Source: Vermamoeba vermiformis
Taxonomy: Eukaryota
Length of the DNA stretch: 64,000 nucleotides
Reading direction: 5' to 3'
Assembly (NCBI GenBank): GCA_045837725.1
Contig: JBEWZL010000145.1
Coordinates: 1 to 64,000 of the forward strand
Shown: positions 47,494 to 49,691 of the stretch, piece by piece
How positions within the stretch are numbered: position 1 is the stretch's first letter
Layout of the letters: each line of letters opens with the position of its first letter
Notes under the pieces: generated by a model
What the model was told of the DNA's origin: nothing
Database searches by the model: none
What the model saw: only the letters and a program-made list of their open reading frames with translations
Made by a program: the position numbers and the translations under genes

Positions 47494-49691
47494 TTATGGA
47501 TTTGCTCCAGGCATGTTTGGCAACCAAAATGCAATATTCGAGCAAGCAGTCGCTGCCATCATGTACTTTGGATTCCACTAAGATATCATTAGTATTCCAG
47601 TAATATAGGCACTATTATTCTAGCCTTACTTGCACGCATCCAACAGGTCCTGCATGACGTCGTTCTTCGGTGCCCCAAACAGCGACCTCTAACAGCTCGT
47701 CGTTGGACTTGTTGACTTGTAATGGTTGATCTTTCTTCGGCAATGACCAGCTGTACACTAATCCGTCTTCAGAACCTAAAAAGAATTCGGTTTAGTAAAT
47801 TTCTAGAATTGCGATCCAGTACGAGTGCTAAGAAATTTCTTCGCAACAAACAAAAAATGCCCATAATAATTCTAATAACGATAAATAAGCTATTATAACT
47901 ATGTTTCCTATTAATAATTGATATTGCTTGTAGATGGTGCTAAAGTCAATGTGCTGCATCGAGAAGTGTCCTTTGGACGCATTATACGATCGTATTAACC
48001 AATCCACGACTGCAAAATGACTGTGTAAGCGGTCAAATTGCTTAATCAATGCTATATTAACACTATAGTATTGATTAGGGACCGGTTAATGCTCGTTCTT
48101 ATAAACCATGAACGCATCTCGGCCTCTTGGCTAAGCTGAAAAATACTTCGTAGTATCTTTCGAAGATTAATTGCAATAGCGATTGATCTTTGAACAATTA
48201 CAGAGGCATGCGACGCCATCACCAAAACAAGCAATTATTTTTTAATTTTTAAATTTGATTTTTGTAAATTGTACTGGCTTTCTAAATCTATTTTTGAAAG
48301 TAATATTAATATTACTTACCGGCTAATAAATACTTCGAATCAGGTGTGAATGAGGCCTCTAAATTACTGCCATGATCGTTCTTGAAGTGCGAGTATTGAT
48401 AGAGCTAAACAGATGCGTTAGTACTTTATATTTAAGTGTTATACTATACTATTTGTTTTTACTTACTTCAGCGCCATTAAATGCGTTAAATACAAGAATA
48501 GTTCCTTCACGAGTATTTGCAAGCAGATAATCGCCGTCATTAGAGAACTTCAAGCCAGTGAATTGATACGAGCTCTTCGTATTAATAACCGTGAATGCTC
48601 CCTATTAAAACGACATTAGTCATATATTATAAATAAGTTGTAATAACGCGAGGCAAAGCGGATCCAGTCGTACCTGAGTAAGCGATCGAAAATCAAAAAA
48701 TTTAATTGTGCTCGGAGAGAATGCTGCACCGAACATAACACCTTGTCCTTCAATAGAAGCACATATCGAATACGAATCGGTCGTCAGAAGAGCCTACATA
48801 GAACGTAGATTAAATATGGTTCATGGTACATCCGCTTCTCAATAAGTGCTAGACCACCCGCGGCACTATAAGTCATCCATATTACTATACACTAGTACGT
48901 ACCTGACAATTAGGGGTCCTTAGATCCCACATTCGAATCGTGCCATCACGTCCAGCGGAGATGAATGTATCGTTACGTGGTGACAACGATAGCGATGTGA
49001 CTCTGCACAGATATTAGTCTATATTACTAATATATAGTGCGGTACTTACTTATCTGTATGTCCTACGAAATTTCTAATATAAGCATTCTCGTGTAACGAC
49101 AAATACCGGATCGCATTAGCGTCTACGAGAGAAAGAGTTATTATGGGCTAATAATAGAGTATTGTATATAAGTACCGTGATAACCAGAATATGAGTTTGA
49201 AGCTGTTAATACGGCGTAGTTGTAGTGAGTAAACCGGATCAGATCTGCGCCGTACTTTTTGCAAAAGACTTTTTGTGTTTTATCGCTAATAAAAATAATT
49301 AATATTATGGGTTTAATATTGAGTACGATAAAATAGTCCTAGAAATATCAAAGTAATTTTGCTGCATTTTTTTGAATTTTTCAAACTATTTCAGATCGCT
49401 CTAGAAATTATTGAATTGAACAAAATATTGCATTAAAAATATACCTATCTAAGTAAGGAATTTTAAATAGCTCGATCGTTCCATCATCGCTCGCAGCAAC
49501 CATGGACTCGCCATCCTTGTAGAAATCTATCGAATTGACTCTGCATAGCTATTAAATAGCAAAATAATATTAATAAGTAATTCTTTACATAAAATAATAT
49601 TTAAAATTAATAGCAAGCTTACGTTAGCGTTTTTATGGACGTGTCCGATCGCCATGGACTTGATAAGTTCAGGAGTTATTTGCATCGCCAT
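47494..49691 (-). CDS. WDR82: WDR82/Swd2 WD40 subunit of COMPASS
   Basis: [57 protein letters not shown] and [18 protein letters not shown]. Confidence 0.93.
47923..48243 (+). ncRNA. Unidentified ~310-nt structured RNA candidate antisense within WDR82 intron 47776-48319
   Basis: Nested end-to-end helices, two 16-bp hairpins and a GUAA-capped hairpin, with many G-U pairs that work only on the + strand. TATA-like element ~30 nt upstream, T6 downstream, and a U2-like segment at 48111-48158. Confidence 0.7.

What the first reader, a model, noticed from the sequence alone, without database searches (positions are those of the whole stretch)
48111..48210. U2 snRNA-like 5' segment and branch-recognition motif embedded in the unknown RNA, with weak U6-like pieces
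Seen vs recalled human U2 5' end (AUCGCUUCUCGGCCUUUUGGCUAAGAUCAAGUGUAGUAUCU): 48111-48135 AACGCATCTCGGCCTCTTGGCTAAG matches 22 of 25 nt, and GTAGTATCT follows at 48150-48158 after a spacer 7 nt longer than in U2. It is not canonical U2, since GAUCAAGU and the downstream stems are missing. The U2-like 5' end can pair in cis with CGAGAAGTGT (47960-69), reminiscent of U2/U6 helix II, and GAACAATTACAGAG (48192-205) resembles the U6 ACAGAG box. Inference (speculative): a U2-derived variant or decoy RNA, or a chimeric snRNA-like molecule. Alternatively the host-strand intron carries antisense elements against U2.
Basis: partly seen in the sequence, partly recalled or inferred. Interest (0 to 1): 0.72.

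Follow-up and report, generated by a model that had tools for sequence, protein, structure and literature searches.

The report
U2-derived module inside an unclassified small RNA
A stretch that truly descends from the front end of the splicing RNA U2 sits inside a separate, expressed and conserved small RNA of unknown family in an unnamed microbial eukaryote; it is not a working U2, and its function is untested.

Summary
The U2-like segment is real. A profile of 21 distinct real U2 5' ends hits only 48113-48158 (23.6 bits, E 1.6e-6), covering U2 positions 3-42 with a 6-nt insertion. A local alignment scores 43 against at most 33.5 in 200 simulated windows. It is not a U2 gene. Rfam U2 gives 13-13.6 bits against a cut-off of 46. 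The helix-Ia segment is altered. The RNA has no Sm site or 3' stem-loops.

The segment lies about 170 nt inside a discrete RNA (about 47945-48230) seen in three RNA data sets. This RNA is strongly structured (z -6.8) and is most likely on the + strand. It is nested antisense in a 544-nt intron of a WD40 gene. In one orthologue its U2-like half is the better conserved half (1 versus 10 differences, p 0.029). The U6-like pieces are at chance level.

Best reading: a U2 5' domain co-opted into a lineage-specific small RNA, possibly as a binding mimic. Function was not tested. No Rfam family matches the RNA.

The parts
47776..48319 (-). Host intron (544 nt) of a minus-strand WD40-repeat gene. It starts GUAAGU and ends UUUACUAAAC...UUUUUAG. 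The neighbouring intron, 48405-48466, is only 62 nt.
   Evidence: Spliced RNA reads of a related species join 47773 to 48322 with 4 letters between. Splice signals were read. WD40 Pfam hits on flanking exons.
47891..47918 (+). Two AT-rich TATA-like boxes (TATTATAA at 47891-98, TATTAATAAT at 47909-18), 15-55 nt upstream of the possible 5' ends. Candidate promoter only.
   Evidence: Direct reading. Inference only: the region is AT-rich on both strands, so this is weak.
47945..48231 (+). Discrete expressed small RNA, minimum extent. The 3' end is at 48229-48231. The 5' end is at or upstream of 47945, possibly 47933.
   Evidence: The X1 contig covers 47967-48231 with 0 mismatches. The X3 contig covers 47945-48229 with sequencing adapter directly after 48229 and zero depth on both flanks. 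X15 raw reads of a related species lie inside the intron almost only here. Fold -93.2 kcal/mol, z -6.79.
47933..47940 (+). 5' strand of a predicted terminal stem that pairs with 48212-48220. It requires the RNA to begin at or before 47933.
   Evidence: MFE fold of 47930-48240, -100 kcal/mol, z -6.24. Not covered by the RNA contigs.
47960..47969 (+). CGAGAAGTGT, complementary (9 of 10) to the U2-like 5' strand at 48112-48121. One of two competing folds.
   Evidence: Direct reading. Pair probabilities are 0.35-0.80 with a 5' end at 47945 and 0.10-0.23 with 47933.
47992..48092 (+). 5' domain: a 9-bp closing helix (47992-48000 with 48084-92), a GUAA-loop hairpin (48018-35) and a 15-bp hairpin (48042-78).
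   Evidence: Folds. The natural variant U48055-A48065 to C-G is compensatory, and U48024 to C opposite G keeps the pair.
48094..48114 (+). 5-bp hairpin whose 3' strand (GAACG) overlaps the start of the U2-like segment. Its loop varies in the X3 orthologue.
   Evidence: The X3 differences (T48109A and an inserted C after 48105) fall in the loop.
48113..48158 (+). U2-homologous segment, equal to U2 positions 3-42.
   Evidence: nhmmer 23.6 bits, E 1.6e-6. Local alignment score 43 against a maximum of 33.5 in 200 simulations. BLAST gave 25 of 29 identities to many real U2 genes.
48115..48138 (+). U2 stem-loop I look-alike, lengthened by two pairs (48115-16 with 48137-38) made possible by the altered helix-Ia bases.
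   Evidence: Rfam U2 local match to model positions 8-25, 17 of 18 identical, 13.0 bits. Pair probabilities 0.58-0.79 with a 5' end at 47933. The X3 change C48126A lies in the loop.
48136..48149 (+). Altered spacer CTGAAAAATACTTC, replacing the 8-nt helix-Ia/Ib segment of real U2. The inserted AUACU is complementary to AGUAU of the branch-point recognition sequence.
   Evidence: Alignments. Hairpin 48143-47 with 48152-56 has pair probability 0.48-0.69.
48150..48158 (+). GTAGTATCT, identical to the U2 branch-point recognition sequence and the 3 bases that follow it. Predicted to be mostly paired here.
   Evidence: Unpaired probability 0.03-0.35 for 48152-55.
48159..48194 (+). 16-bp hairpin with 3 G.U pairs at the place where U2 has stem IIa. 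No sequence similarity to stem IIa.
   Evidence: Profile homology stops at U2 position 42. Related-species reads continue with a diverged hairpin that, aligned by hand, keeps 7 of the 8 loop-proximal pairs (loose end at 48159).
48200..48205 (+). ACAGAG hexamer. Chance-level, not evidence of U6 ancestry.
   Evidence: 23 matches in the window against 24.5 expected. No U6 hit at E<=10.
48238..48243 (+). T6 run 7-9 nt past the mapped 3' end. Candidate RNA polymerase III terminator.
   Evidence: Direct reading. The 5S rRNA gene of the same window (18055-18173) is likewise followed by TTT and a T6 run within 13 nt. Inference only.

Best explanation
The segment 48113-48158 descends from the 5' domain of U2 snRNA. 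It keeps the 5' strand, stem-loop I and the branch-point recognition sequence. It has been built into a different, lineage-specific small RNA of about 285-300 nt. That RNA is transcribed from the + strand as its own unit, nested antisense in a long intron of a WD40 gene.

It is not a spliceosomal U2:
- The U2-like 5' end is internal.
- The segment that pairs with U6 (helix Ia) is changed by two substitutions and a 6-nt insertion.
- The RNA ends before any Sm site or 3' stem-loops.

In the predicted folds the changed bases lengthen stem-loop I. The inserted bases pair with the branch-point recognition sequence. So the parts of U2 that are normally free to pair in trans are held in hairpins.

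Inferred, not shown: the module is kept by selection because it presents a U2-shaped surface, stem-loop I plus a closed hairpin over the branch-point sequence, to a factor that normally recognises the U2 5' domain. The RNA would then act as a mimic or scaffold, not as a catalyst.

Shown: homology, expression as a discrete RNA, structure, and unequal conservation of the two halves.
Inferred: strand, polymerase, and any function.
For: Homology:
- nhmmer E 1.6e-6, the only significant hit in 64 kb.
- Alignment score 43, reached by 0 of 200 simulated windows.
- 17 of 18 identical to the Rfam stem-loop I consensus.

Discrete RNA:
- Two independent contigs share the same 3' end within 2 nt (48229, 48231).
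- Adapter sequence follows 48229 directly in X3, and both flanks have zero depth there.
- Related-species raw reads within the intron fall almost only on this stretch.

Structure: z -6.79 for 47945-48232 and z -6.24 for 47930-48240.

Strand:
- The + strand folds to -93.2 kcal/mol (z -6.79), the - strand to -85.3 (z -4.18).
- Seven + strand helices hold 54 Watson-Crick and 9 G.U pairs without interruption.
- 47987 C>U and 48024 U>C lie opposite G, and 48055/48065 change U-A to C-G.
- A T6 run follows the 3' end, as it does at the window's 5S gene.

Conservation: the X3 orthologue has 10 differences in 47945-48110 and 1 in 48111-48229, Fisher p 0.029. That one difference lies in the stem-loop I loop.

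Not a U2: 13.6 and 13.0 bits against a gathering score of 46.
Against: - No function was tested, and no partner is known.
- Only two orthologue data sets exist. One is a single contig. The other is a few raw reads, too thin to list differences in the U2-like part.
- Of 15 natural substitutions, 4 break a predicted pair (47980, 48064, 48084, 47995). For 47995 the partner was not covered.
- The G.U count is biased, because the helices were taken from the + strand fold.
- No stranded reads were available. X15 shows both mate orientations on exons and on the RNA alike.
- The tool marks X1 as possibly DNA.
- The fold of the U2-like part changes with the assumed 5' end.
- The organism's own U2 and U6 could not be examined, because no genome is held.
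- A sharp end at 48229-31 could also be a 5' end of a minus-strand RNA.
Confidence: 0.5

Rival explanations
1. Neutral relic. A fragment of a U2 gene or transcript was captured into, or duplicated next to, an unrelated small-RNA gene. This could have happened by reverse-transcriptase template switching, as proposed for snRNA-headed SINEs. It survives only as hairpin-forming filler. Its likeness to U2 has no present function.
For: U2-derived pieces as short as about 32 bp are known to be added to other transcribed elements (SINEU; PMC4494074, abstract and passages read). The U2 elements that act in trans are predicted to be paired here. No functional data exist.
Against: The U2-like half carries 1 difference against 10 in the other half in the X3 orthologue (p 0.029). 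Nine of nine bases of GTAGTATCT and 17 of 18 of stem-loop I are intact, which is hard to reconcile with drift unless the capture was recent. No second copy exists in the 64-kb window.
Confidence: 0.2
2. Minus-strand reading. The stable RNA is cut out of the host intron in the sense orientation. It carries 25 + 9 nt complementary to the U2 5' end, acting as a guide or sponge for U2.
For: Intron-sense location is the usual one for sno/scaRNAs (established knowledge). The sharply defined end at 48229-31 would fit a 5' end where cDNA runs off. ACA lies 3-5 nt from the other contig end (direct reading). The minus strand also folds well (z -4.18).
Against: The minus strand folds 8 kcal/mol worse, with a weaker z. 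The 9 G.U pairs of the + helices become A.C mismatches. Transitions at 47987 and 48024 keep pairs only on the + strand. I saw no box C/D or hairpin-hinge-hairpin H/ACA layout. There was no snoRNA hit beyond an 11.8-bit fragment at E 4.1. There is no T-run or other end signal on that strand.
Confidence: 0.1
3. A working variant U2. It would be a divergent or specialised U2-type snRNA that still recognises branch sites, perhaps for a subset of introns.
For: Intact GUAGUAUCU and stem-loop I. The organism's introns use TACTAAC-like branch sites that this sequence would pair with (and direct reading). A hairpin sits where stem IIa would be.
Against: 13-13.6 bits against a cut-off of 46. At least 145-166 nt precede the U2-like 5' end in the RNA contigs. 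The helix-Ia segment is altered. The RNA ends at 48229-31. The only Sm-like run (GATTTTTGT, 48257-65) lies outside it. The branch-point recognition bases are predicted to be paired.
Confidence: 0.06
4. Chance resemblance within an AT-rich structured region.
For: The Rfam U2 E-values are only 7.3 and 2.2.
Against: E 1.6e-6 with a 5'-domain profile. 0 of 200 simulated windows reached the score.
Confidence: 0.01

Closest known systems
U2 spliceosomal snRNA (Rfam RF00004)
   Same: U2 positions 3-42 are recognisably homologous. These cover the 5' strand, stem-loop I (17 of 18 to the Rfam consensus) and GUAGUAUCU (9 of 9). A hairpin follows where stem IIa would be.
   Different: The score is far below the family cut-off (13.6 against 46 bits). 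The U2-like part is internal to a longer RNA. The helix-Ia segment is changed and lengthened by 6 nt. The RNA has no stem IIa/IIb sequence, no Sm site and no stem-loops III/IV.
SINEU elements with U1- or U2-derived heads (PMC4494074; abstract and passages read)
   Same: A short 5' piece of U2 has been incorporated into another transcribed, non-U2 element.
   Different: SINEU pieces sit at the 5' end, belong to multi-copy retroposons and are reported only from crocodilians. Here the piece is internal, the locus is single-copy in the window, it is syntenic in an intron in a related species, and the RNA is a compact structured molecule.
Variant snRNA genes (for example human U2 variants; PMC8457000, only the search listing and the start of the abstract seen)
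   Same: Expressed sequence relatives of a canonical snRNA.
   Different: Those variants are full-length snRNAs with point differences that can enter snRNPs. This RNA keeps only about 40 nt of U2.
Pol III small RNAs that engage the U2 snRNP, for example snaR-A binding SF3B2 (PMC12647172, only the search listing and the start of the abstract seen)
   Same: A possible analogy of action: a small non-spliceosomal RNA touching U2-associated factors.
   Different: No sequence relation. snaR-A is hominid-specific. Binding is not tested here.

Membership tests
U2 snRNA (RF00004) | Covariance-model score at or above the gathering score (46 bits) | tested here: not met
   13.6 bits, E 7.3 (global). 13.0 bits, E 2.2 (local, positions 8-25). 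Not listed at the gathering threshold.
U2 snRNA (RF00004) | Stem-loop I sequence and pairing | tested here: met
   17 of 18 identical to the model consensus with all pairs standard. Predicted with probability 0.58-0.79 in one of two folds.
U2 snRNA (RF00004) | Branch-point recognition sequence GUAGUA in the right order after stem-loop I | tested here: met
   GTAGTATCT at 48150-58, aligned to U2 positions 34-42.
U2 snRNA (RF00004) | Conserved segment between stem-loop I and the branch-point sequence that pairs with U6 (helix Ia) | tested here: not met
   Two substitutions and a 6-nt insertion relative to 21 distinct real U2 5' ends.
U2 snRNA (RF00004) | The U2 sequence starts at the RNA's 5' end | tested here: not met
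   RNA contigs run 145 nt (X1) and 166 nt (X3) upstream of 48111 without a break.
U2 snRNA (RF00004) | Sm site followed by stem-loops III and IV | tested here: not met
   The RNA contigs end at 48229 and 48231, with adapter after 48229. The model's 3' half aligns to nothing. The only Sm-like U-run is at 48257-65, outside the RNA.
U2 snRNA (RF00004) | Association with Sm, SF3a/b and U2A'/B'' proteins, and a trimethylguanosine cap | not testable with these tools
   Needs immunoprecipitation and cap analysis.
U6 snRNA (RF00026) | Covariance-model match, or at least an ACAGAGA box together with the AGC triad and internal stem-loop | tested here: not met
   No U6 row at E<=10 in the 65-nt, 331-nt and 1501-nt searches. 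ACAGAG alone is at chance frequency (23 against 24.5 expected).
Box C/D or H/ACA sno/scaRNA (either strand) | Box C/D or H/ACA motifs in the canonical layout, or a match to an Rfam snoRNA family | tested here: not met
   The only snoRNA row is a 17-nt, 11.8-bit fragment at E 4.1. By eye there is no terminal C/D pair and no hairpin-hinge-hairpin-ACA layout; this check was not made with a dedicated snoRNA finder.
Other known structured small RNAs (RNase P/MRP, SRP, 7SK, telomerase RNA, U1/U4/U5/U11/U12) | Any Rfam match to the 5' domain or the whole RNA | tested here: not met
   Searches at E<=10 over 47920-48250, 47925-48112 and 47400-48900 list only weak, unrelated rows. Very divergent members cannot be excluded.

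The most novel reading that the evidence does not exclude
This is a natural U2-mimic regulatory RNA: an independently transcribed small RNA that displays the U2 5' domain. It can switch between two near-isoenergetic folds. In one, stem-loop I and a closed hairpin over the branch-point sequence copy free U2. In the other, the U2-like 5' strand pairs in cis with 47960-69, as U2 does with U6 in helix II (recalled). The RNA would titrate a U2 partner, either the U6 3' region or a protein that reads the U2 5' domain, and so tune spliceosome assembly.
Probability: 0.15. Interest if true: 0.85.

Novelty: new variant of a known kind. Interest (0 to 1): 0.55.

Why it matters
Spliceosomal snRNAs are among the most conserved RNAs. 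Their known derivatives are full-length variants, pseudogenes or SINE heads. A compact, expressed and conserved small RNA that keeps only the U2 5' domain would be a new way of re-using a piece of the spliceosome, because the trans-acting elements of that domain are locked into hairpins here.

If the module is a mimic, it would give a natural tool for asking what reads U2 stem-loop I and the branch-point region before spliceosome assembly. If it is a relic, it records how new small RNA genes are assembled from old parts.

My searches of the held literature found no such RNA. There was no hit for four strings of its sequence. Among the papers returned for U2 mimic, decoy, 'U2-derived' or 'U2-like' terms, I saw none that describes one (12 of 12 and 20 of 42 listed, from titles and abstract starts apart from the two papers read).

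Tried and rejected
- Own genome: not held, so the organism's true U2 and U6 could not be found.
- Metagenome scan for orthologues. My pattern allowed an 8-nt spacer. Of the 124 matches in the 123 loci fetched, 95 had that 8-nt spacer; 92 of these are ordinary U2 gene 5' ends and 3 lack the U2 5' strand. The other 29 were unrelated, and none had the 14-nt spacer. BLAST of the RNA against all 123 loci found only the 29-46-nt U2 5' similarity. The loci did serve as real U2 references.
- Exact 26-mer scans of genome contigs and viral contigs: 0 hits each.
X2's matches at 48233-72 are low-complexity pieces at 90-95% identity that run on into unlike sequence.
- U6 or chimeric U2/U6 idea: rejected.
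- RNase P/MRP, SRP, 7SK, telomerase RNA, U3 and snoRNAs were considered by eye from recalled motifs and by Rfam at E<=10. Nothing was found.
- The alternative pairing GCCUCU (48122-27) with AGAGGC (48202-07) is favoured only with a 5' end at 47945. The X3 change C48126A would break it.
- A recalled amoebozoan upstream promoter motif: CCCATAA is present at 47860-66, but the recalled 8-mer pattern does not match there. It matches twice elsewhere against 6.7 expected. The paper read (PMC7919456, passages) gives the ~60-nt distance rule but not the motif letters. Dropped.
- Host gene as a WDR82/Swd2 type: my recollection only. The tools show only generic WD40 repeats.
- Organism: the nearest named relatives of one conserved protein reach only about 51-70% identity, with chytrids and Entamoeba among the best-scoring. 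Another gene has mostly bacterial relatives. No taxon is claimed.
- The mirrored-structure energies are not usable, because non-standard pairs are scored leniently.
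Full report
**Setting.**
The window is from a eukaryote. It has spliceosomal introns with GUAAGU 5' sites and UACUAAC-like branch sites (direct reading) and a dispersed 5S rRNA gene. No whole genome is held for it. The nearest named relatives of a conserved protein reach only about 51-70% identity, so I name no taxon.

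The finding lies inside a 544-nt intron (47776-48319) of a minus-strand WD40-repeat gene. RNA reads of a related species join 47773 to 48322. Flanking exons hit WD40 families. The next intron, 48405-48466, is only 62 nt.

**The observation.**
As real references I used U2 genes fetched from metagenome contigs. The commonest 5' end occurs 63 times among them.
- Against that sequence the 25-mer at 48111-48135 matches 22 of 25.
- A local alignment of a real 44-nt U2 5' end scores 43 at 48112-48158. Two hundred simulated windows gave 26.1 +/- 2.1, maximum 33.5, and none reached 43.
- A profile of 21 distinct real U2 5' 72-mers finds exactly one significant hit in the window: 48113-48158, 23.6 bits, E 1.6e-6. 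It covers U2 positions 3-42 with one 6-nt insertion. The next hit has E 0.17.

So the likeness is homology, not chance.

It carries two substitutions and then the insertion. Profile homology stops at position 42, so stem IIa is not recognisable.

The U6-like pieces fail. ACAGAG is as frequent as chance predicts (23 against 24.5 expected). Rfam lists no U6 match at E<=10 even in a 65-nt search.

**It is not a U2 gene.**
- Rfam U2 scores 13.6 bits (global) and 13.0 bits (stem-loop I only), against a gathering score of 46.
- At gathering thresholds the only family found in the window is 5S rRNA.

**What surrounds it.**
Reads and contigs of public runs laid on 47600-48700 show a discrete RNA.
- An RNA-seq library of a wastewater sample holds a 266-nt contig equal to 47967-48231 with no mismatch. 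The tool marks this run as possibly DNA.
- A root metatranscriptome holds a contig covering 47945-48229, with 11 other letters and one gap. Sequencing adapter follows 48229 directly, and depth is zero on both flanks.
- Raw RNA reads of a related species (90-95% alike) cover the exons. Within the intron they cover almost only 47970-48080 and 48118-48191.

The U2-like segment therefore begins about 145-166 nt inside an RNA of about 285-300 nt, whose one end is fixed at 48229-31.

This RNA is strongly structured: -93.2 kcal/mol, z -6.79 for 47945-48232, and -100 kcal/mol, z -6.24 for 47930-48240. No Rfam family matches any part of it at E<=10 apart from weak unrelated rows. There is no second copy in the window.

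**Strand.**
- The + strand folds 8 kcal/mol better and with a stronger z than the - strand (-85.3, z -4.18).
- Seven + strand helices hold 54 Watson-Crick and 9 G.U pairs without interruption. On the other strand these 9 would be A.C mismatches. This count is biased, because the helices come from the + strand fold.
- Among natural differences, 47987 C>U and 48024 U>C lie opposite G and keep pairing only on the + strand. 48055/48065 change U-A to C-G. Seven of the 15 substitutions fall in unpaired positions. Four break a predicted pair; two of these (48064, 48084) are end pairs of their helices, and for one (47995) the partner base was not covered.
- A T6 run lies 7-9 nt past the mapped end. 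The window's 5S gene is followed by a similar run.
- AT-rich TATA-like boxes lie upstream, but the other strand is AT-rich too.
- The adapter type seen after 48229 would, from my recollection of Illumina stranded kits, also point to the + strand. I give this no weight.
- No stranded reads were available.

I put the + strand at about 85-90%.

**Anatomy of the U2-like part in the fold**.
- A 5-bp hairpin (48094-48114) overlaps the first U2-like bases.
- Stem-loop I (48118-48135) forms as in U2 and is lengthened by two pairs that use the substituted bases.
- The inserted AUACU pairs with AGUAU of the branch-point recognition sequence (48143-47 with 48152-56, probability 0.48-0.69).
- A perfect 16-bp hairpin follows where U2 has stem IIa.

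With a 5' end at 47945 instead of 47933, an alternative of nearly equal energy wins. In it, 47960-64 pairs with 48117-21, and 48122-27 pairs with 48202-07. The one natural change in this region (C48126A) lies in the loop of stem-loop I and would break the alternative. That is a single data point for the U2-like hairpin.

**Conservation.**
In the root-sample orthologue there are 10 differences in the 166 nt before the U2-like part and 1 in the 119 nt from it to the 3' end (Fisher p 0.029). In the related species, reads align at 90% or better over 48118-48159 and then continue into a diverged hairpin. Aligned by hand, that hairpin keeps 7 of the 8 loop-proximal pairs, through changes of G.U to A-U and A-U to G.U. 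Depth there is too low for the tool to list differences, so I claim no more than that the segment is present.

**Interpretation.**
Shown: a U2-homologous 5' domain, embedded in a discrete, expressed and structured RNA with orthologues, and not a member of the U2 family by score or architecture.

Inferred: + strand, its own transcription unit, possibly RNA polymerase III.

The mechanism I commit to, at modest confidence: the module was co-opted and is kept because it offers a U2-shaped surface to something that normally reads the U2 5' domain. Meanwhile its trans-pairing elements are locked in hairpins. The RNA would thus be a mimic or scaffold rather than a splicing catalyst.

Rivals:
- A neutral captured fragment. 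The SINEU families show that short U2 5' pieces do get added to other transcripts (PMC4494074, abstract and passages).
- A minus-strand intron-derived RNA antisense to U2.
- A working variant U2.
- Chance, which searches exclude.

A paper on SF3B recognising the shape of a duplex with a bulged adenosine rather than its sequence (PMC12342898, abstract and passages) shows that branch-helix look-alikes can be bound. The hairpin here has no clear bulged adenosine, so I draw no support from it.

**Novelty.**
I found no description of such an RNA. There were no literature hits for four strings of its sequence. Searches for U2 mimic, decoy, U2-derived and U2-like terms returned nothing comparable apart from SINEU; of most of those papers I saw only the title and the start of the abstract. 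Subscription journals and supplements were not searched.

I rate it a new variant of a known kind: an snRNA-derived RNA. The carrier RNA itself is unclassified.

**Limits.**
- Two orthologue data sets only.
- No strand-specific data.
- No access to the organism's own U2 and U6.

Noticed in passing
window 18055-18173 (+), with 18174-18186: A dispersed 5S rRNA gene (104.7 bits), followed by TTT and a T6 run. It is useful as the window's own example of a Pol III terminator.
   Followed up: partly
window 3289-4767 (+) and 34525-35994 (-): Two long leucine-rich-repeat ORFs (492 and 489 aa) that look near-identical by eye. They lie in opposite orientation about 30 kb apart, which suggests a large inverted duplication. 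They were not aligned.
   Followed up: no
window 30374-31741 (-): A 455-aa ORF with no Pfam family. All its relatives that carry an organism name are bacterial, at 24-41% identity. Two unnamed near-identical eukaryote-context hits are also present. It is a candidate for horizontal gene transfer.
   Followed up: partly
window 62679-63572 (-): A 297-aa ORF matching DUF7869 (E 3.2e-39). From recollection this domain occurs in transposon-like genes.
   Followed up: no
window 47860-47866 (+): CCCATAA lies about 70-85 nt upstream of the small RNA. It resembles a recalled amoebozoan small-RNA promoter element, but the recalled 8-mer does not match there. Unexplained, and possibly chance.
   Followed up: partly
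window 48257-48265 (+): GATTTTTGT, an Sm-site-like run, followed by a possible Y-shaped fold (48273-48323). It lies 26 nt beyond the mapped 3' end of the RNA and overlaps the host 5' splice site. It is not covered by the RNA contigs.
   Followed up: partly
window 45095-45942 (+): An intron-split NAD(P)H-hydrate epimerase (YjeF_N) gene. The best hit is 81% identical and comes from an unnamed metagenome protein; named species reach only about 51-70%.
   Followed up: partly
loci L001-L123 (metagenome contigs): Most real U2 genes fetched carry an 8-nt segment (ATCAAAGT) between GGCTAAG and GTAGTATCT.
   Followed up: yes
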